A DNA stretch of 32,000 bases from Trichodesmium erythraeum IMS101 (lineage in GTDB: Bacteria; Cyanobacteriota; Cyanobacteriia; Cyanobacteriales; Microcoleaceae). The notes below the pieces were generated by a model. It was not told the origin of the DNA. It was given only the letters and a program-made list of their open reading frames with translations, and searched no databases. Position 1 is the first letter of the stretch. Each line of letters begins with the position of its first letter. The stretch is from positions 5,670,001 through 5,702,000 of the forward strand of contig NC_008312.1 in NCBI RefSeq assembly GCF_000014265.1, in the 5' to 3' direction. Positions 6,318-26,072 of the stretch are shown one piece after another. The position numbers and the translations under genes were made by a program.

Positions 6318-6446
6318 TATTTGTTTTATTCGACTAATGCTTAAGAGATTGGCGTTGGAAGAGGATGGTGGCGGTAGCTATATCGCCTAAGTTTTGAGAG
6401 ATACACTCAGGGGTTCCATACAAAATTATTCGTATTGACGCACTAC

Positions 6447-11183: not shown

Positions 11184-11559
11184 TGTTATTTTAAATTGAC
11201 AGTTCCTGTCCTGTGTTTTGATAATGCTAATGAAATTAGGGAAAAAGTCAAACTTACTTGAAATTTTTGGTAATACATCAAAAAAGTATTAGGAAAGTGA
11301 TCAAGTTATATCAAGGACCGGAAGCGAGCACTAAACCAGAGCTTTATACTGCTGTGCTACCCTTGCAGCTAAAATCTAAATCAAATTGAAATAGTTAACC
11401 ACCAACCTAACTGTGATTTCAGTTTGCTCCCAAACCTTGACAAGTTTATTCTCAAGTTTATTCTCAAGTTTATTCTGTCGTTGATGCCTGAGACCATTCT
11501 TTTGTCTGACTATACCATTAGTTCACTCTAATTGTGGAGTTCGCTATGTCACCAAGATA

Positions 11560-11960
11560 ACTCAAACGCATCAATTTATTATAAGGGATATCTACAGTTT
11601 GTTTGAGGTAAGACACATCCGTATTGACTATCAACTACTACTATAGCTCTATGTTATAAGCAGGAAAAAGCTTGGGTTAACTGTTCACTTAACTTACTCA
11701 TAGCAGTATCACAACCATTAATTCTTTCATGTATTAAAGGTAATGCCCAACTGCCCTTTGCTTCTGAAATTTAGGCTAATGTGCTATACCCAAAACCTAC
11801 CCCTATTGGTTGATTGACTTTGATTTTACCAGGTTGATATTCATCGGTTCTTTCTTGCAGTACCACTGTATCTTGTCTGAGGCAAGCACTATGGTCTCCT
11901 AACAATAATAGTCTTTGATTTGAGGTGATACAATTAATATAAATTTCCATCAACTTGTAT
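11560..11960 (-). pseudogene. DDE transposase remnant (IS4/IS701-like), several stops and frameshifts
   Basis: Minus-strand reading gives ..QRLLLLGDHSACLRQDTVVLQERTDEYQPG..PIGVGFGYSTLA*..GSWALPLIHERI..SKLSEQLTQ..IVVVDSQYG. This is the D...WxLPL..RI...DSxYG arrangement of DDE_Tnp_1-type transposases. The boundaries are approximate. Confidence 0.4.
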
Positions 11961-13137
11961 TTTGACGGATAACAGTCTTTTATAGCTTCCTAAACACTAT
12001 GTTATTGTCACTGAAACACAGACGCCAAAGATAATTATGCTAGATAAATGGGATTTGAAGTTAAGATGCCTGCATCAGTAAGCTCAAAAACAGCATTCTT
12101 TGCATTTGCGAATAAATGATTAACTTGGTATCATCATTATTTTAACTTGTAACCAGGGATTTTGGCAAGATAATTTTTATTTCATGGTTGATTTTTTACC
12201 TTTTATTGACTTACCAAAGAACTAGATACTTACAAGCAAGACCAATCATACTAAATAGTATAATCATTAGTCATAAAAATGCTGGGATCTTCAATTGATA
12301 TCAAATCTTGTTTCTCAAATTTATTGATTGTTTAATTTTCTTAAATCCTCTCTTTGATTGCATCTTCAACTATTTAGTCTAAGCTCCAGCACCAGAATTT
12401 GAACCTAAAATATTTACTTGAAAAGATTGCGACTCTGTCTATTGGGCTAGGTCAGCACAAAACTTTTTGTTCTCTCTCTAATTTGAACTGAGGAGATGAT
12501 CACAAAAAAAAATAGCTATGATAAAAGACTTTTCCTGATTATTAAGTCTAGACTTGATCAACAATATTAGAATATTAGCGATCGCCTTAATTATATGGTA
12601 ACAAATACTAACTCGATTAACATGAAAATTTATCTTTGATGACAAACCTACTATTTTGAAAGTAAGTTCTGACTAATATTTGTTCTCTTAGTAGATAGAT
12701 AACTAAATCTTTATCAGGAGTTTAATTTTCCTTGTTTCTCCAACACAATCTACTTTTTCCCCAAGTCTACTTTGTCTTACCCCAGTTCTTCAGGTCAAAC
12801 CCATCTTCTTTTAGAACTTATCATTCCCTTTGGATCTAAGAGCTCCAAGTATTTATACTCATTACTCCTTAAAAATGCCACAAGTTTCTAGAATGATTGA
12901 TACATTCGCTCTGCCCTATTATCCCAATTATGCCCTTGTAAGCACTCCCCTATTCCCTAAACACGAAAATCATACATGCACTTTAGCGAGGCTAATCTTA
13001 AATATTTAGTTAACAGTACTTCACAAGATAGGTTACTATGGTTAAGGAAAGCTTAAAGTATTTTTAAGCTACACCTAGAGCTAATAATTTACTACCACCG
13101 AAAAATAACAATCCTGATTAGGAGTTAAATTTTAACA

Positions 13138-14619
13138 ATGACTGATAACTGCTCTTCAAATACAGAAGAATTTTTCGTACATTACCAAAAAATAGATAAG
13201 CCAGAAGAAGCTTGTGGTGTTTTTGGGATTTATGCCCCAGAAGAAGATGTAACTAAACTTACCTACTTTGGTTTGTATGCTCTACAACATCGAGGTCAAG
13301 AGTCAGCAGGTATTGCTACTTTTCAAGGTGATAAAATATATATACATAAAGGAATGGGGTTAGTATCTCAGGTCTTTAATGAGTCAATCTTAGAACAATT
13401 GCCTGGTGATATAGGAATTGGTCATACTCGTTATTCTACTACTGGCTCTAGTCGTATTATTAATGCTCAACCTACTGTTGTTGAAACTCGTTTAGGGCAA
13501 TTAGCCTTGGCCCATAATGGTAATCTTGTTAATACAGCAGAATTAAGGGAAATGTTAATTGAATGTGGGTGTAGTTTTAACAGCACTACAGATTCAGAAA
13601 TGATTGCATTAGCGATCGCCACACATGTGAAAGTTGGTAAGAGTTGGCTAGAAGCTGCTATTAGTGCTTTTCATCTATGTCAAGGAGCCTTTAGTTTAAC
13701 TATTGCCACTCAAGAAGGTCTAATGGGAGTGCGTGATCCCCATGGAATAAGACCTCTGGTGATTGGTACTTTAGAAAATACTAACTCAAAAAGATATGTT
13801 CTTGCTTCAGAAACTTGTGCATTAGATATTATTGGAGCAGAATATCTTCGAGATGTTGAACCAGGAGAATTAGTTTGGATAACAGAAAAAGGCATAGCTT
13901 CTTTCCACTGGAGTCAAAAAACTCAGAAGAAACTATGTATCTTTGAAATGATTTATTTTGCTCGCCCCGATAGTATGATGGAAGGGGGTAGTTTATATAG
14001 CTACAGACTCAGAATTGGACGTCAGTTAGCAAGAGAATCTTTTATAAGCGCAGATATGGTAATAGGCGTTCCTGACTCTGGTATTCCAGCAGCAATCGGT
14101 TTTTCCCAAGAATCAGGTATTCTCTATGCAGAAGGATTAATTAAAAATCGCTACGTTGGCCGTACCTTTATTCAACCAACTCCGCACATGAGGGAATCAG
14201 GTATCCGCATGAAACTTAACCCCCTCAAAGATGTTTTAGAAGGCAAGCGAGTAATTATAGTTGATGATTCCATTGTACGTGGTAATACTAGCAAGAAAAT
14301 TGTTAAGGCTTTAAGAGATAATGGTGCCACAGAAGTCCACATGAGAATTTCTTCCCCACCAGTCACGCACCCCTGTTTTTATGGAATTGACACAGATAAC
14401 CAGGAACAGTTAATAGGGGCAACAAAATCAGTCGCAGAAATTGCTGAACAAATAGGTGTTGACTCTCTAGCATATTTGAGTTGGGAAGGGATGTTGAAAT
14501 CAACACAAGAGGACCCCAACAGTTTTTGTTCTGCCTGTTTTACTGGCAACTATCCTATTCCTTTACCAGAAAAACTGAAGCGTTCTAAATTAATATTGGA
14601 AAATCAAGTTAAAGTTTAA
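13138..14619 (+). CDS. purF: amidophosphoribosyltransferase
   Basis: 493 aa. Motifs: propeptide then CGVFGIY (catalytic Cys), LQHRGQESAGIA, PRPP loop IIVDDSIVRGNTS, and Fe-S ligand contexts HPCFYGID and CSACFTGNYP. Confidence 0.96.
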   Translation: MTDNCSSNTEEFFVHYQKIDKPEEACGVFGIYAPEEDVTKLTYFGLYALQHRGQESAGIATFQGDKIYIHKGMGLVSQVFNESILEQLPGDIGIGHTRYSTTGSSRIINAQPTVVETRLGQLALAHNGNLVNTAELREMLIECGCSFNSTTDSEMIALAIATHVKVGKSWLEAAISAFHLCQGAFSLTIATQEGLMGVRDPHGIRPLVIGTLENTNSKRYVLASETCALDIIGAEYLRDVEPGELVWITEKGIASFHWSQKTQKKLCIFEMIYFARPDSMMEGGSLYSYRLRIGRQLARESFISADMVIGVPDSGIPAAIGFSQESGILYAEGLIKNRYVGRTFIQPTPHMRESGIRMKLNPLKDVLEGKRVIIVDDSIVRGNTSKKIVKALRDNGATEVHMRISSPPVTHPCFYGIDTDNQEQLIGATKSVAEIAEQIGVDSLAYLSWEGMLKSTQEDPNSFCSACFTGNYPIPLPEKLKRSKLILENQVKV

Positions 14620-14950
14620 ATAGTATCAGAGCTAATTATTTAATTTAGCTAAAATAAAGTTTTTATTTAACTTGGCTTTCATAAATATTAAACAACGGAT
14701 GCCATAAGTTGCTCAACCTAAGTTGATGGAATTTTTAATTAAATAATTAAATATAGAATACAAAAGAATACAAAAAAATTAGCTGGAAAGCACTTATGTA
14801 TTGATGATTCATAGATAATTATTGTAGTAATCAAGTAAAAAATGCTATAAAAAGCAATTTATTTTTTTCAATATATACTCTATCAATAAGCTCTTATCTT
14901 TGGTTGATTAATGATAATAAAGAATAAGCTTTTAAGCATTAATATTACCT

Positions 14951-15112
14951 ACAGCAGATCAGGAGCAAATTATGTACAGAGTTATGAGTAAAAATTATGT
15001 AGTGCGGGCATCTTACCCGCCGCCTAGCTGTAGCATTAAACAACGGAAAGGGCTCTATAACAAAAAAAAGGAAAGACAAGAAAATACTAAAATATACTGG
15101 CTAAAAGTTGTA
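14951..15112. repeat. dispersed repeat, copy A (partner at 29010-29133)
   Basis: Shared string ACAGCAGA...AAAATTATGTAGTGCGGGCATCTTACCCGC..CTAGCTGTA..AACAAC.GAAA...AAATATACTGG..AAAAGTTGTA, about 70 percent identical to copy B by eye. It contains the hairpin GCGGG-catctta-CCCGC. Confidence 0.6.
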
Positions 15113-15987
15113 AGTAGTTGTGCAAAATTAATTACACATTTATATAAGCTAATTTTTTGGCTTTCTTGTGAGCTCAAATAATTATTGCTTACTGAAAAAA
15201 ACTGTAATAATTTACAGATAAAGACTTGGGATTTTTTTGTGTGAAAAAGTTACAATCTTTTTACTCTAGTGAGCTGAAGCTTTAGAATTGTGAGCTTATT
15301 CGGGCAGAAAAATTGGGGGAAAATATTTCTTTTAAACGGAGGATAAATGAAGAAAAAATTATTCTTAAATGGAATCCTCAAATAACAAAAACAATTCTGT
15401 TAACATCATTTAAATACATAACAGCTTATATTGATAATTAAATACTAATAATCAATTTTTTTTTCCAAAAATAACCACACTGATTTTTCATATTATAGTG
15501 TGGTTTTGGAAATCAAAAGTCATACTAATACTTAATCCTTCTTTTTCATATTATCAATTCTTTCTTTATATTTATCCTCACCTTCTGTTTTAAACAAATC
15601 ATCCTTTAACCAATCCAATAACTCGTATTCATCATCATCCCACTTACCATAATCGATACCAAAAGTTTTATAGAAATAGCCTAAGTCTTTCGTGTCAAGA
15701 CTATAATAAATATATGTTTTCTGTAGCTTTTTTGACTTGTTTTATCAACTCTTGAAGTTTTTATTTATCTTTTTTTATTAACTCTTCTTTATCTTCTTTG
15801 GTTAACTCTTGAAGTTTTTCTTTATCTTCTTTATTACTCATATTTTATCTCCATTTTCCTCTAACTTAGAAACTTTAAACTTAAAGTATTTACTTACATT
15901 AAAAATAAAATACTTCATACAATCTTTGATAATTCTAATTTTTTAATAAAGTCTTAACATTTATACTTATGAAAAAACTAACAACTA

Positions 15988-16614
15988 TTACTCCGGAAAA
16001 TCCCTGTCCGTAATGCTTGTTTGTCCCAAATATTTGTTGAGATAAGGCGAAAACACCTCATAAATTAATGTCAGTGGTTGGCCATGATGCCAAAATAGAT
16101 AATGTCGTCCCCAAAAAGGCCCTGACTCACCAAAAGCAAACTCTAATTCTCTAGAATGCCCATAATAAATTCCCTGGACATCTCGATACAATTCTGTACG
16201 CAAACGAGCTAAACTTGCCCAAATTGGTAAAGACCGATTTTGCAAATACTCATCTACATGACTCGCTTCCCACCAAGATGAAGCATAAGCCAATCTTTGT
16301 CCAGAAGCTGTTCTTAGCCATACTTGTCGCCGTAATCTTGGGCCAGGTACAGTATGAATTAAATCAGGAGCATTATCCAGGTTCATCCCAATTGAGGACA
16401 TATCAATTACATCAACTTCTGTTGGTTCAGTTGTTAATAGCTGCAAGTGACGAGTTGGGGAGCCATCTCCCAGAAGTAATATTTGCCATGGGGGTGAAAG
16501 TAGCGAATGAGGTAAACCTTGGCGAACAACTTCTTCTCCTCCTTGCCATAAGGGAGTTAAGGAATACCATCCTCTCGGCTGTATTGTCTGGTTCTTAGGT
16601 GAAATAGTACTCAT
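15988..16614 (-). CDS. chorismate lyase-like (UbiC/DUF98 family) protein
   Basis: 208 aa. WQILLLGDGSPTRHLQLL matches the LL.sDGS.T..L signature of chorismate-pyruvate-lyase-fold proteins. The size is typical of the cyanobacterial plastoquinone-pathway enzyme. Confidence 0.65.
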   Translation of the reverse strand: MSTISPKNQTIQPRGWYSLTPLWQGGEEVVRQGLPHSLLSPPWQILLLGDGSPTRHLQLLTTEPTEVDVIDMSSIGMNLDNAPDLIHTVPGPRLRRQVWLRTASGQRLAYASSWWEASHVDEYLQNRSLPIWASLARLRTELYRDVQGIYYGHSRELEFAFGESGPFWGRHYLFWHHGQPLTLIYEVFSPYLNKYLGQTSITDRDFPE

Positions 16615-16619
16615 TTGAA

Positions 16620-16661
16620 TTATTAGTTATTAGTTATCAGTTATCAGTTATCAGTTATTAG
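16620..16661. repeat. heptanucleotide tandem array (TTATYAG) x6, STRR-like
   Basis: ttattag ttattag ttatcag ttatcag ttatcag ttattag. The array starts 6 nt from the start codon (16612-16614, minus strand) of the chorismate-lyase-like gene. Confidence 0.95.
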
Positions 16662-17117
16662 TGCCTCTGGCTAAAGTCTATAAATGAAATACTAAAGTTT
16701 ATTCTTTTTATCTCTTATCTAGTGGAGCAGGGGATATAATTTTTTGGTCAATGTTCTTTTTTGCAAAATTTAATTTTTTAGTATAATTATAGCGTCTTTA
16801 CTTAATGATTTATACTAGCATCACTAAAAAAAGTAAGTCTGAAGTCTCACCCATAAGCGGGGGGATTTTTATGCATTAAAATAGTAATAATTATGCTATT
16901 ATGTTATTAGTTTATATAAAAATCATGAAGGATATATTTAAGTATTTTTATTTAAAATAATACAACTAATTTAGGATTACTGTAGAGTGTTAATAATCAG
17001 ATTATTTATTATTTGGGAAAAAAAATTACAGTATTTATTCAATAGTTATATTATTTTTTTTCAAATTACCATGATAAAAAAAATACAATATAAATTAATT
17101 TTAGGCAATCAAAAAAA

Positions 17118-18737
17118 ATGAACAAAAAACAGGAATCATTCTTCTGGAAATCAATAAATAGCCAAGCATCAAAATTCAGAAAAAATCTCGGAAAAAAAGC
17201 AATAAATGTTAGGGATTCAATCAGGGATAATTATTGGGAAGCTTCTCAAAATAAAGCTTCAGAAATGGAAGAATTTATCAGCAATAAAGCATCAGATGTT
17301 AGCAAATATTTTAGAGAAACTGCTAAAGAATCTACTTTAGGGAAAAAGCAAATTAATTCAGAAGTCTCGGAAGAAACAGAAAATAATTTAGAACAAGAAG
17401 AAATATATCATATATTTGTTGCTTATCATATTGCTAGTCAGGGAGGTACTCAGAAAGTTACTCTTAAATCTGGTAAAAGCTATAATGTGAGAATTCGTTC
17501 TAATAGTACGGAAGGTTCTACTTTAAGATTACAAAAATGCGGTTTACAAGGTAATGATGCTTTCCTGGTTTTACATACTTTTTATAATCCCGAATTAAAC
17601 CTAGACCGCCGGATGAATAGTTTAGTAATTCGTGCATCAATTTATGAAAGAAGTAAAACTAGATGTTTAGAAGCTTACAGCAGAATTAATTCTGGTTTAC
17701 ATACCTATGATTTGCCAGCACTAAATCTATTGGATTTTATTGTAGAATTATCAAATATAGATTCACTTATTGGTTTACGCTACAGAATTGCTAGTGAAAA
17801 TTCTCGGTGGGTTGCCATTGATAAAGGTTTAGAACAAGTTTTATCTTATGGTAATTTAATGGAAGTTCAAAAGCAAAATTTAAAAGGTATTTATCTATAT
17901 ATTAAATCTGGAGAACCTCTACCTGATTTTGCTAATTTTAGACAATTAAATGCAATTATTTTAAATTCAGCGATCGCTTCGGAGTTAAAAAATAAATATT
18001 TATTAGCAAGTGCAACTTCTATGGCGATGAAAATAGATATATTAATTATCAATCTGATTTATAGTAATACGGAAATAGATCAGAGTAAATATCGTAAATA
18101 TTTATCTATTTATCAACAACTTAGGGAAGAAGGAAAAGTAATAGATAATAAAATGATACAAAATTTAGATGGTGTAATTTTTAAATCAGAAATTCCTCGA
18201 ATTTGTAAAATCGTATATCAGCTTTTAAGAGATAGATATTTTGAATCAAATTTGGAAAGAAATATCAATAATTTTAATGCAGCTTTTATGAAATTTAAGA
18301 AGGCAGAAAAGTTTGTTAAACAAGCAACAAATTCAGAAAAAACTACAAATAGCTTTGGTAATATTATTATTCAAACAGGTATGTTAATTCAGGAAGTTGA
18401 TGATGCTGTAGTTAGTGGTGGTGTTGGAATATTAGCAGGAGTAAAAGTATTGAAAGGTGGAGAAGCTTTAATTGGTGCAGTAGGTTTAGTGGCGATCGCC
18501 TCGACTTTAGAAATGAGTATACAAGAGAAAATTAAATTAGGAATTACTGAGGAAGGTAATTTTTCTGGGGAAGTTGCTTATAGTGAAATGATGAATATTA
18601 TTAATCAAGTTAGTTGGGTTATTGCTGATGGAGAAGAAAGCAAATTAGAGCAGGAAATTGATATTTTTAAGATATTTAAGGGAAATAAAAATAGAAAGCA
18701 AATTTTGAAGGACTTGGAAACTAAGTTGTATAGTTAG
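17118..18737 (+). CDS. hypothetical protein (orphan), K/S/E-rich N-terminus, C-terminal glycine-zipper hydrophobic segment
   Basis: 539-aa uninterrupted ORF in a very AT-rich region, containing two HIP1 octamers. Residues about 95-160 (GGTQKVTLKSGKSYNVRIRSNSTEGSTLRLQKCGLQGNDAFLVLH) weakly resemble a DnaJ C-terminal beta-repeat. The segment VVSGGVGILAGVKVLKGGEALIGAVGLVAIAS (nt ~18408-18515) is a GxxxG/glycine-zipper-like stretch. I recognise no catalytic motif. Confidence 0.6.
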   Translation: MNKKQESFFWKSINSQASKFRKNLGKKAINVRDSIRDNYWEASQNKASEMEEFISNKASDVSKYFRETAKESTLGKKQINSEVSEETENNLEQEEIYHIFVAYHIASQGGTQKVTLKSGKSYNVRIRSNSTEGSTLRLQKCGLQGNDAFLVLHTFYNPELNLDRRMNSLVIRASIYERSKTRCLEAYSRINSGLHTYDLPALNLLDFIVELSNIDSLIGLRYRIASENSRWVAIDKGLEQVLSYGNLMEVQKQNLKGIYLYIKSGEPLPDFANFRQLNAIILNSAIASELKNKYLLASATSMAMKIDILIINLIYSNTEIDQSKYRKYLSIYQQLREEGKVIDNKMIQNLDGVIFKSEIPRICKIVYQLLRDRYFESNLERNINNFNAAFMKFKKAEKFVKQATNSEKTTNSFGNIIIQTGMLIQEVDDAVVSGGVGILAGVKVLKGGEALIGAVGLVAIASTLEMSIQEKIKLGITEEGNFSGEVAYSEMMNIINQVSWVIADGEESKLEQEIDIFKIFKGNKNRKQILKDLETKLYS

Positions 18738-19608
18738 AATTCATAATATTTTATTGATGAAAAGTAAGCATTCAGCTCTTAGCAGTCAACTATCAGCAAT
18801 TAACAATGAGCAATTACTGTTAATATGAAATACAAAAAATTGTACTAATATCCTAATATTTCTTTCTACCCATTTCCCCCAGAACCCTACCAATTTTTAG
18901 TGGCAAATATTAACGTATTTTATAGATAGCACTACCTGCTAACCTCAGAAGATTTTGAAATTACTCAACAAACTTTTTGAGATATTGAAAAAGTTATAAA
19001 GTATCCTAAAGTCTTGTTATATTGCCATAAACTTAAGGAAAATTAGTTGGGTAGTAAATTTTAATTTTATTTCAATTTCTCAGTTTTTTTTACCTCCTTT
19101 TTTAAGCAATAAGTGATAAGGCAGGTCTTCTGCAAGAGACTAGTTAATAGCTGATGGCTGAATACTTATGATTAAATTATCCAAACTTTATTTAATAGCT
19201 AAATAAATTCAGAGTGATTTTTTGATAATATGGGGTTTGGTTACTAAACCCCAAAGTTGAGTTTGATACAGCCTATTTCTTGTCAAGTATGGTCAAGTAA
19301 TTTTAGTATATTTGCTCAACAAGAATGAAAACTTAGTTTTATACTTCAAAAACTATCTAACAACCTACTATCACCGTAACTTATAAACCCAGAATGCGCC
19401 CTTAAATATAATAATTAAAAATATACCAATTGCCTCAAGCATAGCTATATATTGTAAAATATAATTAAATCACATAATCTTATAAAATACAGCCATGTAG
19501 CCTAAATTTATAAAATTAGTCTTACACTCTATAGCTATAGTTTTTTGCTTCTATTTTATTTGTATTTCAAATTTTTCTATCTGAAAATATCGAACTAATT
19601 GAATTAAT

Positions 19609-20343
19609 ATGTCAGAATCAATAAAAGCACAATATCCTATTATTTCTTATAATCATATACTCTCAGAACTTTCTGTTAATAGTCAAGATCCATGTGAAGT
19701 TATTCGTGAGTTAATCTCTAATTCTTATGATGCTGAGGCTTCTCAAATTCAAATATACCCAATTACAACAGAAAGAGAAAAGGGATTTATATTTTTTGAT
19801 GATGGCATTGGTTTAAATGAAACAGAAGAAACTAATGGCATTACTCCTTATCGTGCATTTTTTTCAATTGGAAAATCTACAAAAGTTCAAGGAGATTATA
19901 TTGGCTATAAATGTCAAGGTTCTAAGCTTTGCTTTGCATCTAAAAAAATTACTATTATTACGAAATGTTCAGGTGAACCCTCGTGGCGATATATATCAAT
20001 AGATAATCCACAAAAAAATATTAATGAGTCATTTAATATTTCTTCTCAGCATAGTGATCAACCTTGGAGTATTCTAAGCAAACTTTTTCCTATACTAAAA
20101 AGTTCAACAAAAAACATACTAGAAAAATTAGATAAAGATTTTTTTGACCGTAATTTTAAGAGTCAAGGAACAATGATTATTTTGGAAGGACTACACATTG
20201 CAAACTTTAATAAATTTTATTCTACAGATGAGTATGCACGAGACGACTGGTCTTATTTAAAACATTATATCCGCTTCAACACAAGACACGGTGATATGAG
20301 AATACTTAGACCTGATAAAACAGGTTTTCCCCAAAGAAAATAA
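19609..20343 (+). CDS. GHKL (MORC/Hsp90/MutL-type, HATPase_c_3-like) ATPase, N-terminal part, ends at an in-frame TAA
   Basis: Bergerat-fold motifs in the right order and spacing: N-box ELISNSYDAEA (ExxxNxxDA), G1 box FFDDGIGL (DxGxG), and G2-like IGYKCQGSK. Confidence 0.75.
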   Translation: MSESIKAQYPIISYNHILSELSVNSQDPCEVIRELISNSYDAEASQIQIYPITTEREKGFIFFDDGIGLNETEETNGITPYRAFFSIGKSTKVQGDYIGYKCQGSKLCFASKKITIITKCSGEPSWRYISIDNPQKNINESFNISSQHSDQPWSILSKLFPILKSSTKNILEKLDKDFFDRNFKSQGTMIILEGLHIANFNKFYSTDEYARDDWSYLKHYIRFNTRHGDMRILRPDKTGFPQRK

Positions 20344-20361
20344 GCTTTATTTAAAGGAAGT

Positions 20362-21576
20362 ATGGGATACAATGATCAATGCAAACTGTTTCTATGGTCT
20401 AATACAAAAAAGGAATATACATTAAAAGAAATTGAATCGGGATATCCTTATTTACAAAAACCAAATGACAATGAAGAAATAAAAATAAGCACTCCTGCTA
20501 AAGTATCAAGCCTTGAGAATGGTAATTTTTCAGGGCGTTATTGTTCTACTTTTAAGTATCAAGAAACAATCTATTGTATCACTTTAGCAATAGATGGAAA
20601 TAGAAGAGCATTAAATAATTATAAAGAGCTAGGTAGACAAGGGAAAGATAATAGCAAGTCCGGAATTAGATTAGTAGATCAAAGAGGAACATTCATTTCA
20701 TCTGAAGGTGTGAAAATTTGTTCTTACAATAAAATTTTTGAGCATTTATTATTAGAAAAATATTCCATTCTTGCAGAGAATAAAGTTCAACGCCATTATA
20801 TTTTGATCATCAACGGTAGTTTTAACGTAGTCACAAATAGAAATTCTTTAACTGATACTTCTAAACAAATTTTAGAAGACCCTCCATTTATAGAAAAAAT
20901 CAAAAATTTTTTAGATGAAGCTGAACGAAACGTTGTTGTTTTTCGTGAATTGATTGAAAGATTAAAGAAAGAAAATCAAGAGAAAAAATTCGAAAAATAT
21001 ACTGAGAGGTTAAAAAAACTTAAAGAAAGTATTCAATATAGACCAAGGTTTAAAGTTAATAACATAGAACAATTAAAAGATAAATGGATTATAGCACCAG
21101 AACACGGAGAAGAGCATTGGGTAGGAGCATTATATACAATGTTTTCTCATTTAGTTACTGTTAACTCGCCTTGTCAAAAATTATGGGTACGCCCAAGAAC
21201 TTTTTGTGGTAATGGTCTTGATAGCATAGCTGTTCCTTTAGAAGAAAATAGTTTAAAAGAAACGGTTCATGAAGGACTAGAATATAAGTATACTTTTTCC
21301 GCTACTGATCAATATAACCATCCTTTTATTCAGACTAATTGGATCGTTTGTTGGGATATGTCTATGCCAGAAAAAGGAGCAAAAATTGAGGATGCTTATG
21401 AATATTTTGGATATGTTTCTTTTGAGAATGAAGAATTAACTAACATTGGCTATGAAATTGTTGATATTGAACGTCTAAAAGGTGAGAGTCATTCTTCCCC
21501 GATTAAAGTAATTAGCTTAAAGAAATTACTAAATGAGACATTTGATTGTAAATGGACTACTCCACCCACCAAATAA
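20362..21576 (+). CDS. C-terminal continuation of the GHKL ATPase gene (same frame): coiled coil plus PD-(D/E)xK-like module
   Basis: It is in the same reading frame as 19609-20343, separated only by TAA plus 6 sense codons. Features: coiled-coil-like FRELIERLKKENQEKKFEKYTERLKKLKESIQ, then EEHWVGALYTMFSHLV...GLDSIAV...GLEYKYTF...IVCWD, which fits an E...D...ExK restriction-endonuclease-fold pattern. That reading is inference. Confidence 0.6.
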   Translation: MGYNDQCKLFLWSNTKKEYTLKEIESGYPYLQKPNDNEEIKISTPAKVSSLENGNFSGRYCSTFKYQETIYCITLAIDGNRRALNNYKELGRQGKDNSKSGIRLVDQRGTFISSEGVKICSYNKIFEHLLLEKYSILAENKVQRHYILIINGSFNVVTNRNSLTDTSKQILEDPPFIEKIKNFLDEAERNVVVFRELIERLKKENQEKKFEKYTERLKKLKESIQYRPRFKVNNIEQLKDKWIIAPEHGEEHWVGALYTMFSHLVTVNSPCQKLWVRPRTFCGNGLDSIAVPLEENSLKETVHEGLEYKYTFSATDQYNHPFIQTNWIVCWDMSMPEKGAKIEDAYEYFGYVSFENEELTNIGYEIVDIERLKGESHSSPIKVISLKKLLNETFDCKWTTPPTK

Positions 21577-22358
21577 ATATCTTTTAATATTTAGGGCTAT
21601 GGTTTTTTTGTAGGGTAATTGTTAATATTGACTTAATTAGGGTTGTCTGATGAAATCTAAAAGTATTGACACATATAAACGTTCAAGCATTTTTTTTACC
21701 TTTAAAAAATACTTGTTTTTTAATCTTTAAAGCTCATGTATAGCAGTGCCCTCTGGTGTATTTACACATTATTTCTTTGACACCTTTTCTAGACTGGGCT
21801 TTGATCTATAATTTATAAATACCTCAGAGAGCAGCGCTATATGTTATGATTCCTATATAGCAAATATATCTAATTTGCTGATTTGCCGATTACTATATAT
21901 AGTGTTTTTCAAATTAAATACACACTATCTGTGGAAAATATATTGTCAACCATTACAATTTTTGCAATAAATTCTAGCTTATTGACAATTCCCATGGTTG
22001 ATTGTAATTGATGGGTTAGCTCTGACCATGAAATAAAAATCAAAGTACAAATATATCTAACCCACTTTCCGCACTTCAACTTGTAACATTAAAAATAGTA
22101 TAAAACCCGTAGCTTGCTACTAAATCGTTAATTCTTATTGGCCACTATGATTTTTTTCTTAATACCTGAATTCCCACTTTGAGGGATATCATCAAGGAGA
22201 TTGAATGCATGAGTTTTGAATTATATTTATGCTACATTTTGTATTAAAAAATGTAGGGCACAAGCAGTCTCCTAGACCTTAAAAAGACCTTTTCCCCTAA
22301 ACCCTAATTAGTATATATCTTAAACTATAGCGCTATAGTTTTTTTCTCTTCACATCAA

Positions 22359-23648
22359 CAGGACTTACGCAGAGAAACTATATATAGCGTATATTAAATA
22401 GAGCGATCGCTAAAAAAATCATAGCCATCCCCCAGCTTTTATTCATTAAAAACAATCCATAAAAACTTAAACAACTGTCATTTTAATTGTCGGATATTTG
22501 AGTTCAGAGACTAGATATTTAGATGATAATTGATGTTTTAGTTGATCAATAGTTTTTCCCAAATTATTGGCAATTTTTTTCAAATTATTCCATACCAACA
22601 TAGCACAAGCAATGTGATTTTTTTGAATTTTTCCCCGACGACATTGACAAAATTCAAGTCCTGTTAACTGTTTAATTTCTCTGTGGAATTCCTCAATTTT
22701 CCACCTAGTTTGAATCTCAAACTCAACATCATCTGTACTTTGACAACTAAGGTCATTAGTAGCAATATATTCTGCTGAAGTTTGTGGAAACACTACCCCA
22801 GAATAATTTAACTTTTTTATCTCTAGGAAAACCTTTTATTTTAATAATCTTTCCTGATGTTAATTCCCACTCATTCCATTTTAATTCTTCCAGTTTTTGA
22901 TACTTTTTTACACCCCCACTATCGTCTACTAAACCATTGCTTTTTAAAGGGCAATAGTAAATTTTACCTAAATTATCTATTAAAGCCATTAGTCTTTGGG
23001 TTGCATACCAGCTATCCATTAATACTGTTTTGACTGGTATTTTCTGATTTTCCACCATATCAACCAACCTCAACTTCTACATTATCTATTTTACTCTTTT
23101 CATCATTTTCTGGATTATAAATACGATAATCTATTATCCAGAATCGCTCTATTTTAGGATGAAAATATAAGCAATTAACTATTCCTATCCCACTCACTAC
23201 CCCATGTTCATTTCCACTGTACTGACGGCGGACAAGTTCAATTTTTAGGGAATATTTTTTATTAATAACTGTATCATCAGGCCTTTAAATAACCATCTTC
23301 AGAATTGACAATTTCTTTCCTGACATTTTGCCACAAAATTTCTGAACCTAAATCAACACTTTTCAAATAACGATTAATTTGATCGTGGCTAATTTTTTCC
23401 ACCTTGGATCGGCAAGATTTGTTAGAGTATAATTTTTATGACTACTTATTAAATACTGAAAATATTTGATATAATCAAAGTTCATATTAAAGGTATTACA
23501 AGTAATTTATATAATATTAATCAAGCATACCAAATAATTTGGGCTCAAGCAAATTTTTAAGGTTTTTGTATTTTGCTGTTCAAGCGATCGCTAAATAGAT
23601 AAATCTTTAAGGGTAAACACTATATATAGTGTCTTTGCGTAAGTCCTG
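22359..23648 (-). mobile_element. IS element (IS4/IS701-superfamily DDE type), 1290 bp, transposase frameshifted
   Basis: Terminal inverted repeats CAGGACTTACGCAGAGAAACTATATATAGCGT (left) and the reverse complement of the right end, CAGGACTTACGCAAAGACACTATATATAGTGT, matching at about 29/32 positions. There is a 5-bp direct duplication ATCAA at 22354-22358 and 23649-23653. Removing the element and one ATCAA restores the uninterrupted unit sequence seen at 24281-24300. Confidence 0.88.
22467..23485 (-). pseudogene. DDE transposase (DDE_Tnp_1-like), multiple frameshifts
   Basis: Pieces in different frames: MNFDYIKYFQYLISSHKNYTLTNLA.., ..ISHDQINRYLKSVDLGSEILWQNVRKEI.., ..DDTVINKKYSLKIELVRRQYSGNEHGVVSGIGIVNCLYF.., MDSWYATQRLMALIDNLGKIYYCPLKSN.., and RWKIEEFHREIKQLTGLE (the YREK-type C-terminal signature). 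Confidence 0.8.
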
Positions 23649-24062
23649 ATCAAAAACAATTAACCCTCAAACCCCAAAATACCCAGAGACCATTTAGTTC
23701 GCCTATGAGTATTTTAGGAAAGCGGATGGCGAGAGTCGAAACTTTTGAATTATATTTATGCTACATTTTGTATTAAAAAATGTAAGACATAAGCACTCTC
23801 CTACTCCTTAAAAAGACCTTTTCCCCTAAACCCTAATTAGTATATATCTTAAACTATAGCGCTATAGTTTTTTTTCTCTTCACATCAAAAAAAATTAACC
23901 CTCAAACCCCAAAATACCCAGAGACCATTTAGTTCGCCTATGAGTATTTTAGGAAAGCGGATGGCGAGAGTCGAAACTTTTGAATTATATTTATGCTACA
24001 TTTTGTATTAAAAAATGTAAGACATAAGCACTCTCCTATTCCTTAAAAAGACCTTTTCCCCT

Positions 24063-24209
24063 AAACCCTAATTAGTATATATTTGAAACTATAGCGCTAT
24101 CCTACTCCTTTAAACCCTAATTAGTATATATTTGAAACTATAGCGCTATCCTACTCCTTTAAACCCTAATTAGTATATATTTGAAACTATAGCGCTATCC
24201 TACTCCTTA
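24063..24209. repeat. 3 x 49-bp tandem sub-repeat inside the third 235-bp unit
   Basis: AAACCCTAATTAGTATATATTTGAAACTATAGCGCTATCCTACTCCTTT starts at 24063, 24112 and 24161, so the period is exactly 49. Confidence 0.92.
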
Positions 24210-24354
24210 AAAAGACCTTTTCCCCTAAACCCTAATTAGTATATATTTAAAACTATAGCGCTATAGTTTTTTTTCTCTTCACATCAAAAACAATTAACCC
24301 TCAAACCCCAAAATACCCAGAGACCATTTAGTTCACCTCTGAGTATTTTAAGAA

Positions 24355-24435
24355 TGCGGATGGCGAGACTCGAACTCGCAAGGCAAAGCCACACGTCCCT
24401 CAAACGTGCGCGTATACCAATTCCGCCACATCCGC
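24355..24435 (-). tRNA. tRNA-Leu (anticodon GAG), class II with long variable arm, no encoded CCA
   Basis: Reverse complement folds by hand. Acceptor GCGGATG/CATCCGC, D stem GCG/CGC, anticodon stem CACGT/ACGTG with loop TTGAGGG, variable arm GGC-ttt-GCC, T arm GCGAG-TTCGAGT-CTCGC, discriminator A. Confidence 0.95.
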
Positions 24436-24716
24436 TTTAGTTAGTTAGGATTTGTCAACTAAACCTCTATGTAATTAGAAATATATTAGCTAACAATATA
24501 TAACGATAACATAAAATTCTGGAATGTTTACAAGAAATTTTCCCAAATATTTTTCAGATAGCAGTCCTCAGAATACTAAATAAATTCTCCACACTCCCAA
24601 ATTGAGTCATAGTAAGAATATACAGTACACCCAACTTCTGAGTCAAACAAAAACATCTTTCCAGATTACCCAAAATACTCTATGCTAACTAAAATAATTG
24701 AGTGAAAAGCACGAAA

Positions 24717-26072
24717 ATGCGTTTCTCTAAAATTCTAATAGCCAACCGAGGTGAAATAGCTCTGCGTATTCTGCGCACCTGCGAAGAAATAGGCATAGCT
24801 ACCATTGCAGTCCACTCAACCATAGACTGCCATGCCCTCCATGTGCAACTAGCAGACGAAGCAGTTTGCATTGGTGAACCTACTAGCAGCAAAAGCTACC
24901 TCAACATACCCAATATTATCTCGGCAGCTCTGACTCGCGACGCCACTGCCATTCATCCAGGGTATGGCTTTCTGGCAGAAAATGCTCGATTTGCAGAAAT
25001 CTGTGCTGACCATGATATTACCTTTATTGGTCCATCTCCAGCAGGAATTAGGGCCATGGGGGACAAATCTACAGCCAAAGAAACCATGCAAAAAGCTGGA
25101 GTTCCTACAGTTCCAGGAAGCGATGGTCTTCTGACAGATGAAAATGAAGCAGTGGCGATCGCCGAAAAAATTGGCTTTCCCCTAATTATCAAAGCCACAG
25201 CTGGAGGAGGAGGACGAGGGATGAGACTGGTTCGCCATCCTAATGATCTGTCCAAATTATTCCAAGCAGCCCAAGGAGAAGCAGAAGCAGCCTTTGGCAA
25301 CCCAGGAGTTTACATGGAGAAATTCATTGAACGCCCACGTCACATTGAATTTCAAATATTGGCCGATAGTTACGGAAATGTGATTCATTTGGGAGAAAGA
25401 GACTGCTCAATTCAACGTCGCCATCAAAAATTACTAGAAGAGGCTCCCTCTCCAGCATTAGATCCTAAACTCCGGCAAAAAATGGGGGAAGCTGCGGTCA
25501 AGGCAGCCAAGTCTATCAACTATCTTGGTGCTGGTACTGTAGAATTTCTTCTAGACCAGTCAGGTAAATTCTACTTTATGGAAATGAATACCAGAATTCA
25601 AGTAGAACATCCAGTCACAGAAGCAATTACAGGACTTGATTTAATTGCCGAACAAATTAGAATTGCCCAAGGAGAAAAATTACAGTTAACCCAAAAACAG
25701 GTCAAGTTTAATGGTCATGCTATAGAATGTCGCATTAATGCCGAAGACCCAGAACACAATTTTCGCCCCCATCCAGGTCGTATTAGTGGATATCTACCAC
25801 CAGGAGGCCCTGGAGTCAGGATGGACTCTCATGTTTATACAGATTACGAGATTCCACCCTACTATGATTCTTTGATTGGTAAATTAATAGTTTGGGGGCA
25901 CAACCGTCCCACTGCTATCCAGAGAATGAAACGTGCTTTAAGGGAATGTGCTGTTACGGGAGTTCCAACTACCATAGGTTTTCATCAAAGAATTTTAGAA
26001 ACTCCTGAATTTGTTGATGGGGAAGTCTATACCAATTTTGTTGAAAATATTATGAACCAAGACCCAAAATAA
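24717..26072 (+). CDS. accC: acetyl-CoA carboxylase biotin carboxylase subunit
   Basis: Motifs: [21 protein letters not shown]-terminus, glycine loop [14 protein letters not shown], and [14 protein letters not shown]. The ORF track starts at GTG 24702, but ATG 24717 gives the canonical N-terminus. Confidence 0.95.

What the first reader, a model, noticed from the sequence alone, without database searches (positions are those of the whole stretch)
16662..22213. AT-rich orphan island between core genes and a tRNA-Leu integration hotspot
The left flank (purF, chorismate-lyase-like) and right flank (tRNA-Leu, accC, yggT, psbX, ycf66) are standard cyanobacterial core genes. The ~5.5 kb between them holds only three long ORFs, all on the + strand and none with a housekeeping signature. 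They are separated by unusually long ORF-free spacers of about 500, 870 and 640 bp. The region is visibly more AT-rich than its neighbours. As illustrative hand counts only, the 60-nt line starting at 20401 has 13 G+C and the accC line starting at 25201 has 30. The island ends at an IS-disrupted array of tRNA 3'-end scars. This context is typical of horizontally acquired defence or conflict cargo, and the cargo matches no system I can name.
Basis: partly seen in the sequence, partly recalled or inferred. Interest (0 to 1): 0.8.

Follow-up and report, generated by a model that had tools for sequence, protein, structure and literature searches.

The report
Old insertion with decayed defence nuclease
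The AT-rich stretch is an ancient, vertically inherited insertion next to a tRNA-Leu gene in Trichodesmium and its relatives; it carries one conserved lineage-specific protein of unknown role and one Shedu/paraMORC-like ATPase-nuclease defence gene that a stop codon has broken in this genome, so it is mostly ordinary.

Summary
The sequence facts hold. 16662-22213 is the lowest-GC 5.5 kb of the window (0.287 against 0.346). All its ORFs are on the + strand, and an IS-split array of tRNA-Leu 3'-end copies follows it.

Two points need correcting:
- There are two genes, not three. ORF2 and ORF3 are one 655-codon gene cut by a single in-frame TAA, and the gene is intact in T. erythraeum 21-75.
- The long spacers are normal here. 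The whole window is only 54% coding.

In 48 other cyanobacterial species, tRNA-Leu(GAG) sits about 180 bp from chorismate lyase, so this is a real insertion at the tRNA 3' side. It is old, though. Trichodesmium, Okeania and Dapis share the same gene order, dS matches the flanking core genes, and the tetranucleotide signature is host-like.

Gene 1 (539 aa) is an Oscillatoriales-restricted protein with a DnaJ-C-terminal-like domain. It is intact in every relative examined.

Gene 2 is a GHKL ATPase with a middle domain and a C-terminal domain carrying an E-D-ExK motif. That is the paraMORC3 / GHKL-Shedu (VcSduA) architecture, but it matches neither the DUF4263 nor the PADLOC models. It is nonsense-mutated, truncated or deleted in 9 of 13 lineages or alleles, and its alleles are mosaic.

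Verdict: partly supported, low-to-moderate interest.

The parts
15988..16614 (-). Chorismate lyase, the left boundary of the insertion. Its start codon faces the island.
   Evidence: Pfam PF01947 4.9e-63; NCBIfam cyano_chori_ly 6.7e-87.
16620..16662 (.). Heptamer tandem repeat, TTATCAG x6, directly upstream of the chorismate lyase start.
   Evidence: TRF.
17118..18737 (+). ORF1, 539 aa, a lineage-restricted conserved protein. Residues 1-92 are a disordered N-terminus with KAS repeats. Residues about 95-160 form a beta domain like the DnaJ/Hsp40 C-terminal domain. Residues 162-403 form a helical bundle. Residues about 430-465 are a Gly-rich hydrophobic segment.
   Evidence: No Pfam or PADLOC hit. 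58 homologs, those with a source name all filamentous cyanobacteria of Microcoleaceae-type genera (Trichodesmium, Okeania, Dapis, Hydrocoleum, Limnoraphis, Planktothrix) or unclassified cyanobacterial MAGs. AF2 model pLDDT 75 with the core above 90. Foldseek hits to Hsp40 CTDs at E about 0.05, prob 1.0. NCBIfam DnaJ PRK14299 5.7e-4. Full length in all clade loci. dN/dS 0.32-0.37. Against strain 21-75 there are 4 synonymous and 0 nonsynonymous differences.
19609..21576 (+). One GHKL-ATPase/nuclease gene of 655 codons, interrupted by a nonsense codon in this genome.
   Evidence: ORF2 and ORF3 are in the same frame with a single stop. The intact ortholog is P0001 in T. erythraeum 21-75. AF2 pLDDT 87.5. 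Foldseek hits to Hsp90, MORC2/3/4, GyrB and TopoVI-B at E about 1e-13 over about 470-520 columns.
19609..20343 (+). ORF2, codons 1-244 plus the stop: the Bergerat-fold ATP-binding domain. It carries the N-box E34-x3-N38-x2-D41 at 19708-19731, the G1 box D64-x-G-x-G68 at 19798-19812, and the G2 box G99..G104.
   Evidence: PF13589 HATPase_c_3 6.8e-11. These residues are invariant in 42 homologs.
20341..20343 (+). Premature TAA stop at codon 245. Strain 21-75 has GAA (Glu) here, so this is a G>T change at 20341.
   Evidence: The same stop is present in assemblies L001 and L003-L006.
20362..21576 (+). ORF3, codons 252-655: the middle (transducer/S5-like) domain, a coiled coil at residues 416-477, and a C-terminal alpha/beta domain with a restriction-endonuclease-like E-D-ExK motif. 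Motif positions are E501/E502 at 21109-21114, D538 at 21220-21222, and E558-Y-K560 at 21280-21288.
   Evidence: These residues are invariant in 42 homologs. The predicted topology is H502-513, E527-529, E539-543, E555-563. There is no Pfam, PADLOC or PDB sequence match for this domain.
22198..22358 (.). The leftmost copy of the roughly 142-nt repeat element. It is cut off from its partner sequence by the IS.
22359..23648 (-). Decayed DDE-type insertion sequence with 35-nt terminal inverted repeats and a 5-bp ATCAA target duplication. The transposase reading frame is broken into several frames.
   Evidence: Inverted repeat I1, 89% complementary. Sequence read. Weak DDE_Tnp_1 / DDE_Tnp_2 hits, E about 3e-3.
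23649..24354 (.). Tandem 235-nt units, 98% identical to each other, with a 49-nt x3 sub-array. Each unit carries the 73 nt found downstream of the tRNA plus a 20-nt copy of the tRNA-Leu 3' end, at 23722-23741 and 23957-23976.
   Evidence: TRF; pattern search; alignment A4.
24355..24435 (-). tRNA-Leu(GAG), the right boundary of the insertion. Its 3' end faces the island.
   Evidence: ARAGORN; Rfam tRNA 53.5 bits. The same tRNA is present at the empty site in 48 species.
24702..26072 (+). accC (biotin carboxylase), a conserved neighbour of the tRNA.
   Evidence: tblastn synteny; Pfam domains on the orthologs.

Best explanation
The window comes from a Trichodesmium erythraeum-type genome. The low-GC stretch is an ancient insertion into the short gap, about 180 bp in most other cyanobacteria, between the 3' end of tRNA-Leu(GAG) and the start of chorismate lyase. 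The insertion predates the split of Trichodesmium, Okeania and Dapis and has been inherited vertically since.

It holds two functionally independent genes:

1. ORF1 is an Oscillatoriales-restricted protein of unknown role. It has a disordered N-terminus, an Hsp40 C-terminal-like beta domain, a helical bundle and a Gly-rich hydrophobic segment. Purifying selection keeps it intact in every relative. I infer that it is a lineage-specific cellular protein and not a defence component.

2. The second gene is a stand-alone GHKL ATPase-nuclease. The inferred mechanism rests on analogy with MutL, MORC, Hsp90 and VcSduA. ATP binding dimerises the N-terminal Bergerat domains. The middle domain and coiled coil form a clamp around DNA. 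The C-terminal E-D-ExK domain cuts DNA. Together these would make a single-protein restriction-like anti-phage nuclease of the paraMORC3 / GHKL-Shedu type.

In this genome the second gene is cut by a TAA at codon 245, at the junction between the ATP-binding domain and the middle domain, so it is most likely inactive. The gene is being lost repeatedly across the clade.

The AT-richness reflects the intrinsic composition of these two weakly constrained genes plus Trichodesmium's AT-rich non-coding DNA. It does not indicate recent transfer. The tRNA-proximal end remains structurally unstable, with 235-nt tandem duplications that include the tRNA 3' end and a later IS insertion.
For: Organism:
- The window is 100% identical over 11.3 kb to a contig of GCA_018457135.1 and 99.3% identical to T. 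erythraeum 21-75.

Empty site:
- 48 of 80 species loci have accC, tRNA-Leu(GAG) and chorismate lyase contiguous, with the tRNA 3' end a median of 184 bp from chorismate lyase.

Shared, old insertion:
- Nine species-representative loci, plus L007 and L010, in Trichodesmium, Okeania, Dapis and unclassified relatives have chorismate lyase followed by ORF1, with or without the ATPase; where the contig extends that far, tRNA-Leu and accC follow, except in the rearranged L014.
- dS is 0.30-0.54 for ORF1 and the ATPase, against 0.30-0.75 for purF, accC and chorismate lyase.
- The tetranucleotide correlation of the island segments is 0.61-0.77, against a window mean of 0.67 with sd 0.07.

The two genes are independent of each other:
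- ORF1 homologs in Planktothrix and two other taxa sit in unrelated housekeeping contexts without the ATPase.
- ATPase homologs in Nostoc, Kamptonema and Sorangium have no ORF1 neighbour.

GHKL and nuclease architecture:
- See the parts list.
- The literature describes paraMORC3 as GHKL + S5 + a restriction-endonuclease-fold domain with E-D-ExK, with some members stand-alone (PMC2292703).
- VcSduA is a GHKL + PD-(D/E)xK single-gene anti-phage system that is abolished by E27A or K557A (PMC12137116).
- Shedu homologs that carry HATPase_c_3 and an Hsp90/MORC-like middle domain, listed among those with enzymatic N-terminal domains (Type 1D), are described in bioRxiv 10.1101/2023.08.10.552793.

Mobility and conflict character of the ATPase:
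- Its distribution is patchy: many named homologs are from filamentous cyanobacteria, and others are from Sorangium, Stigmatella, Myxococcales and Planctomycetes MAGs.
- Its GC is below that of the locus in every host, for example 0.51 against 0.66 in Sorangium, where it lies next to an integrase fragment and an IS66.

Erosion of the ATPase:
- It is intact in 4 lineages (L002, L010/L016, L018, L021).
- It is broken or missing in 9. These are nonsense at codon 245 here, an in-frame stop near codon 278 in L022, 5' truncations in L007 and P0003, an internal deletion in L019, 3' fragments only in L015 and L020, and absence in L014 and L017.
Against: - The nuclease assignment rests on invariant E-D-ExK residues and predicted secondary-structure order. 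No HMM supports it: Pfam including DUF4263 at E<=10, PADLOC including Shedu, and PDB sequences were all negative. No domain-level fold search was possible.
- No experiment on this family is known to me.
- The family is well conserved (55-60% identity between Trichodesmium and Nostoc over 650 aa) and sits among housekeeping genes in Nostoc. That would also fit a cellular DNA-transaction role.
- The ORF downstream of the stop is still open for 404 codons, and the nonsense allele is present in assemblies from several separate samples. A functional split protein is therefore not excluded.
- Whether ORF1 and the ATPase arrived together or separately is unknown.
- No integrase or flanking att repeat remains to prove tRNA-directed integration.
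Confidence: 0.72

Rival explanations
1. One reading: a recently acquired, mobile defence or conflict island that integrated at a tRNA-Leu hotspot, with three cargo genes forming an unnamed system.
For: - It is the lowest-GC stretch of the window.
- It is an insertion relative to 48 empty sites, and it lies at the tRNA 3' side.
- tRNA 3'-end copies and an IS lie at one end.
Against: - The same genes, order and flanks occur in three genera, with dS equal to that of the core neighbours.
- The tetranucleotide signature is host-like.
- No integrase was found.
- The tRNA-end copies all lie within 700 bp of the tRNA inside 98%-identical 235-nt tandem units that also copy 73 nt of tRNA-downstream sequence. 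They look like local tandem duplication and do not bracket the island.
- There are two genes, not three, and they are not linked outside this clade.
Confidence: 0.05
2. ORF1 and the GHKL-nuclease form a two-gene system. An Hsp40-like client-binding protein would deliver or sense (phage) proteins for an Hsp90-like GHKL module that licenses the nuclease.
For: - The two genes are adjacent and co-oriented in every clade genome that retains both.
- ORF1 has a DnaJ C-terminal-like domain.
- The ATPase's best structural matches include Hsp90.
- Gu et al. speculate that GHKL-type Shedu N-terminal domains may sense misfolded proteins (bioRxiv 10.1101/2023.08.10.552793).
Against: - The genes are separated by an 871-bp spacer that is mostly unconserved between genera.
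- ORF1 stays intact where the ATPase is deleted or broken (9 lineages).
- Outside the clade, each gene occurs without the other.
- ORF1 has no J domain.
Confidence: 0.07
3. The GHKL-nuclease is a cellular DNA-maintenance enzyme of filamentous cyanobacteria (MutL/MORC-like repair, recombination or chromosome organisation), not an immune gene.
For: - Sequence conservation across cyanobacterial orders is high (55-60% over the full length).
- In Nostoc it sits among ordinary metabolic genes.
- No PADLOC model matches it.
- Where intact, it is under purifying selection (dN/dS 0.37-0.46).
Against: - It has been lost or inactivated repeatedly within one clade, with no loss of neighbouring genes.
- Its taxonomic distribution is patchy and reaches Myxococcota and Planctomycetota.
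- It is AT-rich relative to every host examined, and in Sorangium it sits in a mobile-element context.
- Alleles are mosaic, and nonsynonymous differences are in excess between near-identical strains.
- The same architecture has been shown experimentally to be anti-phage (PMC12137116).
Confidence: 0.12
4. The TAA does not inactivate the gene. ORF2 (ATP-binding domain) and ORF3 (re-initiated at ATG 20362) would work as a split two-subunit enzyme, or the stop would be read through.
For: - The allele occurs in assemblies and sequencing runs from several separate samples.
- ORF3 remains open for 404 codons.
- An AAGGAAG motif precedes the ATG at 20362.
- The ORF2 part shows 0 differences from strain 21-75 over 732 nt.
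Against: - The break falls inside predicted helix 242-249, which links the GHKL domain to the middle domain.
- The SD-like motif is only 1 nt from the ATG.
- Met252 is not conserved in the family.
- Many independent disruptions in sister lineages argue for general decay.
- The window allele carries radical changes at conserved positions, for example L575Q.
Confidence: 0.15

Closest known systems
VcSduA and other GHKL-type Shedu proteins (Type 1D in Gu et al.), single-protein anti-phage nucleases (PMC12137116; bioRxiv 10.1101/2023.08.10.552793)
   Same: - It is a single stand-alone gene.
- It has an N-terminal HATPase_c_3 GHKL domain with intact ATP-binding motifs, an Hsp90/MORC-like middle domain, and a C-terminal domain with a D...ExK motif.
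- The catalytic Glu and Lys fall at nearly the same positions (E34 and K560 here; E27 and K557 in VcSduA).
- Its distribution is patchy.
   Different: - The C-terminal domain is not recognised by Pfam DUF4263 (PF14082), even at E<=10, nor by any PADLOC Shedu model.
- A C-terminal-domain profile finds only 101 proteins among 1.84 billion representatives, nearly all with this same architecture.
- It has a roughly 60-residue coiled coil before the nuclease domain.
- It is centred on cyanobacteria.
- The copy in this window is broken.
paraMORC3 family (Iyer, Abhiman & Aravind 2008, PMC2292703)
   Same: - The architecture is GHKL + S5-like + a C-terminal restriction-endonuclease-fold domain with E-D-ExK.
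- A subset of the family is stand-alone with no conserved neighbours. That is the situation here.
   Different: - paraMORC3 was described as prevalent in Proteobacteria and Bacteroidetes.
- No model or reference sequences were available here to test membership.
- No RM-type methylase or helicase partner lies nearby.
BbrUII/HgiDII family restriction enzymes (NCBIfam NF050001)
   Same: - The length is similar (659-position model against 655 aa).
- The N-terminal GHKL region aligns weakly (residues 31-176, E about 1e-5).
   Different: - The score is 24 bits against a cutoff of 550.
- Only the ATPase region aligns.
- No cognate methyltransferase gene is adjacent.
tRNA-associated genomic islands
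   Same: - The insertion is exactly at the 3' side of a tRNA gene, relative to a conserved empty site.
- Its GC is lower than that of its neighbours.
- Partial tRNA 3'-end copies and an IS lie at the tRNA end.
   Different: - There is no integrase.
- No tRNA-derived repeat marks the distal border.
- The content is fixed across three genera, and its divergence equals that of the core genes.
- The oligonucleotide signature is host-like.
Hsp40/DnaJ C-terminal client-binding domain (for ORF1)
   Same: Residues about 95-160 model as the same beta-sandwich (Foldseek prob 1.0, E about 0.05), and NCBIfam gives a weak DnaJ match.
   Different: - There is no J domain, no Zn finger and no second CTD.
- The remaining roughly 380 residues (helical bundle and Gly-rich segment) have no structural or sequence match.

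Membership tests
GHKL (Bergerat-fold) ATPase | Motif I (ExxxNxxD), motif II (DxGxG) and a G2 glycine-rich loop. | tested here: met
   E34, N38, D41, D64, G66, G68, G99, K101, Q103 and G104 are invariant in 42 homologs. PF13589 scores 6.8e-11, above its cutoff.
GHKL (Bergerat-fold) ATPase | A GHKL domain followed by a transducer/S5-like middle domain, at the fold level. | tested here: met
   The AF2 model has pLDDT 87.5. Foldseek finds Hsp90, MORC2/3/4, GyrB and TopoVI-B at E 1e-13 to 1e-11 over 460-570 alignment columns.
Shedu (SduA) | A DUF4263 (PF14082) nuclease domain detectable by the family HMM. | tested here: not met
   No PF14082 hit for any of 17 C-terminal domains at E<=10. No PADLOC hit at E<=1 for P0001, P0048 or P0106.
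Shedu (SduA) | PD-(D/E)xK catalytic residues in a C-terminal alpha/beta domain. | tested here: inconclusive
   E501/E502, D538 and E558-x-K560 are invariant and sit on a predicted helix-strand-strand-strand order. No domain-level fold comparison could be run.
Shedu (SduA) | Confers phage resistance as a single gene. | not testable with these tools
   This needs an experiment. It has been shown only for VcSduA and other Shedu proteins in the literature (PMC12137116).
paraMORC3 | GHKL + S5 + C-terminal restriction-endonuclease-fold domain with E-D-ExK. | tested here: inconclusive
   The architecture and motif pattern agree (PMC2292703). No paraMORC3 profile or reference sequence was available for a direct comparison.
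BbrUII/HgiDII type II restriction enzyme (NF050001) | A score above the curated cutoff (550 bits) and an adjacent cognate methyltransferase. | tested here: not met
   The score is 24 bits, confined to the N-terminal 146 residues. No methyltransferase lies in the window near the gene.
tRNA-integrated genomic island | An insertion next to a tRNA 3' end, relative to an empty site in other genomes. | tested here: met
   48 empty sites have tRNA-Leu(GAG) 96-523 bp from chorismate lyase. Here the distance is 7.7 kb.
tRNA-integrated genomic island | An integrase or recombinase gene, and tRNA-derived direct repeats at both borders. | tested here: not met
   No ORF longer than 56 aa lies in the spacers, and the only mobile-element protein is a decayed DDE transposase. 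The tRNA 3'-end copies are only at 23722-23741 and 23957-23976, with none near 16.6 kb.
tRNA-integrated genomic island | Variable presence among close relatives, and a foreign oligonucleotide signature. | tested here: not met
   ORF1 is present in all clade loci and the gene order is conserved. The tetranucleotide correlation falls within the window's range. Only the G+C content is deviant.
DnaJ/Hsp40 (for ORF1) | A J domain with an HPD motif. | tested here: not met
   No Pfam DnaJ hit. Residues 1-92 are predicted disordered or helical with pLDDT below 40.
DnaJ/Hsp40 (for ORF1) | A C-terminal client-binding beta-sandwich (CTD). | tested here: inconclusive
   Foldseek hits to many Hsp40 CTD structures at E 0.045-1, prob up to 1.0, over 70-100 columns. 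NCBIfam PRK14299 scores 5.7e-4, far below its cutoff.

The most novel reading that the evidence does not exclude
The 655-aa protein may represent an uncharacterised, cyanobacteria-centred branch of GHKL-nuclease immune proteins. Its nuclease domain lies outside DUF4263. In Trichodesmium populations the gene would be a live conflict locus: alleles recombine into mosaics, the region after codon 245 differs between near-identical strains almost only by amino-acid changes (29.5 nonsynonymous against 1.5 synonymous), and the gene is lost again and again. A bolder version adds that the neighbouring Hsp40-CTD-like ORF1 is its client-sensing partner.
Probability: 0.3. Interest if true: 0.45.

Novelty: new variant of a known kind. 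Interest (0 to 1): 0.3.

Why it matters
As a genomic island, the locus is ordinary. It shows that low GC, long spacers and a neighbouring tRNA can mimic fresh horizontal cargo in a genome such as Trichodesmium, which is AT-rich and only about 60% coding.

Its modest value has three parts:
- It gives a dated example of a tRNA-side insertion that became fixed in a whole clade of bloom-forming marine cyanobacteria.
- It points to a compact family of about 650-aa GHKL-nuclease proteins, common in filamentous cyanobacteria, that current defence-finder models miss. The family shares the architecture of the experimentally validated VcSduA. The intact alleles in T. erythraeum 21-75, Dapis and Okeania are ready test cases.
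- The pattern of repeated inactivation and mosaic alleles could say something about phage pressure on Trichodesmium.

ORF1 is a well-conserved protein of unknown role, found in Trichodesmium, Okeania, Dapis, Hydrocoleum, Limnoraphis and Planktothrix.

Tried and rejected
- PADLOC on the split ORFs, on intact homologs, and on ORF1 gave no hits.
- Pfam on 17 C-terminal domains at E<=10 gave nothing relevant.
- PDB sequence searches with single sequences and with profiles A1 and A3 matched only the GHKL N-box.
- A profile of the C-terminal domain against 1.84 billion representatives returned only the same family. The distant hits of about 780 aa have no informative Pfam domains. No bridge to a named PD-(D/E)xK family was found.
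- The third fold search (viral library) was also dominated by GHKL hits: topoisomerases, rIIA and Hsp90. The nuclease domain could not be searched separately.
- tblastn against plasmid and phage collections found no full-length homolog.
- Rfam on the whole window found only the tRNA.
- The promoter and terminator scan gave counts equal to the shuffled expectation, which is uninformative.
- The spacers were compared with ten related loci. The bulk of each spacer is not conserved between genera; what matches is short stretches directly next to the genes (up to about 150 nt upstream of ORF1 and about 95 nt upstream of the ATPase in some relatives), a few other short blocks, and dispersed repeats such as AAACTATAGCGCTATAGTTT. 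I found no support for hidden conserved elements.
- I considered a diversity-generating retroelement as the cause of the clustered amino-acid differences and rejected it. The changes are spread over 1.1 kb, are not adenine-specific, and no template repeat or reverse transcriptase is in the window.
- The VcSduA sequence could not be retrieved from the paper's supplement because the table is truncated, so no direct alignment was made.

Full report
**What is in the sequence**

The window has 33.6% G+C. The stretch 16662-22213 has 28.7% against 34.6% for the rest of the window.

- purF at 13138-14619.
- Chorismate lyase at 15988-16614 on the - strand.
- tRNA-Leu(GAG) at 24355-24435 on the - strand.
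- accC at 24702-26072, followed by yggT and ycf66.

The island ORFs are the three most AT-rich of the window's 15 ORFs. Their GC is 0.293-0.301 and their GC3 is 0.155-0.190, against 0.32-0.44 and 0.17-0.36 for the others.

**Two corrections to the observation**

First, ORF2 (19609-20343) and ORF3 (20362-21576) are in one reading frame and separated by a single TAA at 20341-20343. The identical locus in T. erythraeum 21-75 has GAA there and encodes an intact 655-aa protein. The island therefore has two genes, one of them nonsense-mutated.

Second, the spacers of 503, 871 and 637 nt are not unusual for this genome. ORF-free stretches of 319-2884 nt occur all along the window, which is only 54% coding. 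That fits the published figure of about 60% coding for T. erythraeum IMS101 (PMC4143802).

**Organism**

The window is 100% identical over 11.3 kb to a contig of assembly GCA_018457135.1. It is 99.3% identical to T. erythraeum 21-75.

**Is it an insertion, and how old is it?**

A scan of one genome per species with the chorismate lyase protein returned 80 loci. I screened them with tblastn and ARAGORN.

- In 48 loci (many named ones are Nostocales such as Nostoc, Calothrix, Scytonema and Tolypothrix, and Coleofasciculus is among them) the order is accC, tRNA-Leu(GAG), chorismate lyase. The accC-chorismate lyase gap is 416-1049 bp. The tRNA 3' end lies a median of 184 bp from the chorismate lyase start.
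- In the window, 7.7 kb separates the same two points.
- However, all nine species representatives from Trichodesmium, Okeania, Dapis and unclassified relatives carry ORF1 at this position. So do the separately fetched Okeania and Dapis loci. Where the contig extends that far, the ATPase or its remnant, the tRNA and accC follow in the same order; the exceptions are L017, which lacks the ATPase, and the rearranged L014, which has neither the ATPase, the tRNA nor accC at this position.
- Synonymous divergence of ORF1 and the ATPase from their Dapis and Okeania orthologs is 0.30-0.54. That is indistinguishable from purF, accC and chorismate lyase at 0.30-0.75.
- The GC-normalised tetranucleotide signature of the island segments (r = 0.61-0.77) lies within the window's range (mean 0.67, sd 0.07).
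- ORF1 also carries two of the window's 13 HIP1 (GCGATCGC) sites.

The insertion is therefore real but ancient, and it has been vertically inherited.

**ORF1 (17118-18737)**

ORF1 has no Pfam, NCBIfam or PADLOC family above threshold. It has 58 homologs; those that carry a source name are all from filamentous cyanobacteria of Microcoleaceae-type genera or from unclassified cyanobacterial MAGs. Identity falls with phylogenetic distance: about 80% in other Trichodesmium, 70-78% in Okeania and Dapis, and 35-40% in Limnoraphis and Planktothrix.

The AlphaFold model has a confident core. It shows:
- A disordered N-terminus, residues 1-92, with KAS repeats.
- A beta domain at about residues 95-160. 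Foldseek matches it to many Hsp40/DnaJ C-terminal domains at E about 0.05 and prob 1.0. NCBIfam gives a weak DnaJ hit.
- An 11-helix bundle with no structural neighbour.
- A Gly-rich hydrophobic segment.

In Planktothrix and two other taxa the homolog sits in unrelated housekeeping neighbourhoods. ORF1 is full length in every clade locus. Its dN/dS is 0.32-0.37 between genera. Against strain 21-75 it differs by four synonymous and no nonsynonymous changes.

I read ORF1 as a lineage-specific cellular protein of unknown role, not as part of a defence system.

**The ATPase-nuclease gene (19609-21576)**

*N-terminal and middle domains.* The N-terminal 140 residues match HATPase_c_3, with all Bergerat motifs invariant. 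A high-confidence model (pLDDT 87.5) aligns over about 470-520 columns with Hsp90, MORC2/3/4, GyrB and TopoVI-B. That means a GHKL domain plus a transducer-like middle domain. A long coiled coil follows at residues 416-477.

*C-terminal domain.* A C-terminal alpha/beta domain comes next. In it, E501/E502, D538 and E558-Y-K560 are invariant across 42 homologs. They sit on a helix-strand-strand-strand succession, the E-D-ExK pattern of restriction-endonuclease-fold nucleases.

*Comparison with described systems.* This is the architecture described for paraMORC3, some of whose members are stand-alone (PMC2292703). It is also the architecture of the Shedu homologs that carry a GHKL ATPase fold, listed among those with enzymatic N-terminal domains (Type 1D) in bioRxiv 10.1101/2023.08.10.552793. 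One of these, VcSduA, protects against T1-like phages as a single gene and needs both its ATPase Glu (E27) and its nuclease Lys (K557) (PMC12137116).

*Membership in Shedu is not shown.* DUF4263 and the PADLOC models do not detect the protein. PDB sequence searches match only the N-box. A profile of the C-terminal domain finds just 101 proteins in 1.84 billion representatives, almost all with this same architecture. I therefore say it works like a GHKL-Shedu or paraMORC3 nuclease. I do not file it as a Shedu member.

*Conflict-gene traits.*
- Its distribution is patchy: many named homologs are from filamentous cyanobacteria, and others are from Sorangium, Stigmatella, Myxococcales and Planctomycetes MAGs.
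- It stands alone in unrelated neighbourhoods. In Sorangium it lies beside an integrase fragment and an IS66.
- Its G+C is below that of its surroundings in every host examined.
- Within the Trichodesmium/Okeania/Dapis clade it is intact in only four lineages. It is independently broken or gone in nine:
  - nonsense at codon 245 in this window;
  - an in-frame stop near codon 278 in L022;
  - 5' truncations in L007 and the P0003 allele;
  - an internal deletion in L019;
  - 3' fragments only in L015 and L020;
  - absence in L014 and L017.

**The tRNA-proximal end**

The region 22198-24354 consists of repeats of a roughly 142-nt element. Each element is followed by the 73 nt that lie downstream of the tRNA and by a 20-nt copy of the tRNA 3' end. 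The final copy is the real tRNA. Two units are 98% identical, and one unit contains a 49-nt x3 sub-array.

A decayed DDE-type IS (22359-23648, with 35-nt inverted repeats and an ATCAA target duplication) has split the leftmost unit.

The copies include 73 nt beyond the tRNA and are nearly identical, so local tandem duplication explains them more simply than serial integration scars. They do not bracket the island, and no integrase is present.

**Noted in passing**

Between the window and strain 21-75 there are 31 substitutions in codons 265-626 of the ATPase and none in codons 1-244. Of these, 29.5 are nonsynonymous and 1.5 synonymous, giving pN/pS of about 4.8. The density is about 4 times that of the nearby intergenic DNA, and the transition/transversion ratio is 0.48 against 1.6 elsewhere.

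A third allele, P0003, is a patchwork of both. Its C-terminus matches the allele of another Trichodesmium lineage. This shows recombination and hints at diversifying selection, but with only three alleles it stays a lead.

**Verdict**

The sequence features are real, but the interpretation needs correcting. This is not fresh, unnamed cargo. It is an old, fixed insertion at a tRNA. It holds one conserved lineage-specific protein and one eroding GHKL-nuclease gene, which is a variant of a known defence architecture. Interest is low to moderate.

Noticed in passing
window 20403-21486 (ATPase codons 265-626) compared with L002:12492-14459: Against T. erythraeum 21-75 this segment has 31 substitutions, 29.5 nonsynonymous and 1.5 synonymous (pN/pS about 4.8). 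Codons 1-244 have none, and ORF1 has 4 synonymous changes only. The substitution density is about 4 times that of nearby intergenic DNA, and the transition/transversion ratio is 0.48 against 1.6 elsewhere.
   Followed up: partly
P0003 (548 aa, on a 44.8-kb contig whose ORF1 is identical to the window's): A third allele of the ATPase. It is truncated at the 5' end. Up to residue 545 it is a patchwork of window-type and 21-75-type residues. From residue 546 on it matches the P0002 allele of another Trichodesmium lineage, which is evidence for recombination between alleles.
   Followed up: partly
loci L007, L014, L015, L017, L019, L020, L022: The ATPase has been inactivated independently in sister lineages. 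L022 has an in-frame stop near codon 278. L007 has a 5' truncation. L019 has an internal deletion. L015 and L020 keep only 3' fragments. L014 and L017 lack the gene. ORF1 stays intact in all of them.
   Followed up: yes
window 10254-13137: A 2.9-kb stretch with no ORF of 80 aa or more. It contains a 202-nt x3 tandem repeat (10570-11187, 98% identical) and a 12-nt x3 repeat (11441-11476). Strain 21-75 lacks one 12-nt unit.
   Followed up: no
window 16620-16662 and 8523-8575: Perfect or near-perfect heptamer tandem repeats: TTATCAG x6 directly upstream of the chorismate lyase start, and AGAAAGC x7.6.
   Followed up: no
window, 13 sites (e.g. 17970, 18492, 22403, 23584): The HIP1 octamer GCGATCGC occurs 13 times where about 0 are expected by chance. 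Two sites are in ORF1, none are in the ATPase gene, and two lie just inside the IS ends.
   Followed up: no
L012 (Kamptonema) 5377-17383: The ATPase homolog lies next to an AAA_15/AAA_21 ATPase gene and radC. It is about 6 kb from ycf66 and the trypsin-PPC genes, which also flank the Trichodesmium locus on the other side. This may be regional persistence or coincidence.
   Followed up: no
window 22322-22342, 23851-23871, 24249-24269; also L010, L015, L020: A short palindromic element, AAACTATAGCGCTATAGTTT, recurs in the repeat units. It also appears in the corresponding intergenic regions of Dapis and other relatives, so it is a dispersed hairpin-forming repeat.
   Followed up: no
L014 (Trichodesmium sp. 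MAG_R04): The locus is rearranged. yggT and ycf66 lie directly next to ORF1, and the ATPase, tRNA-Leu and accC are missing from this position.
   Followed up: no
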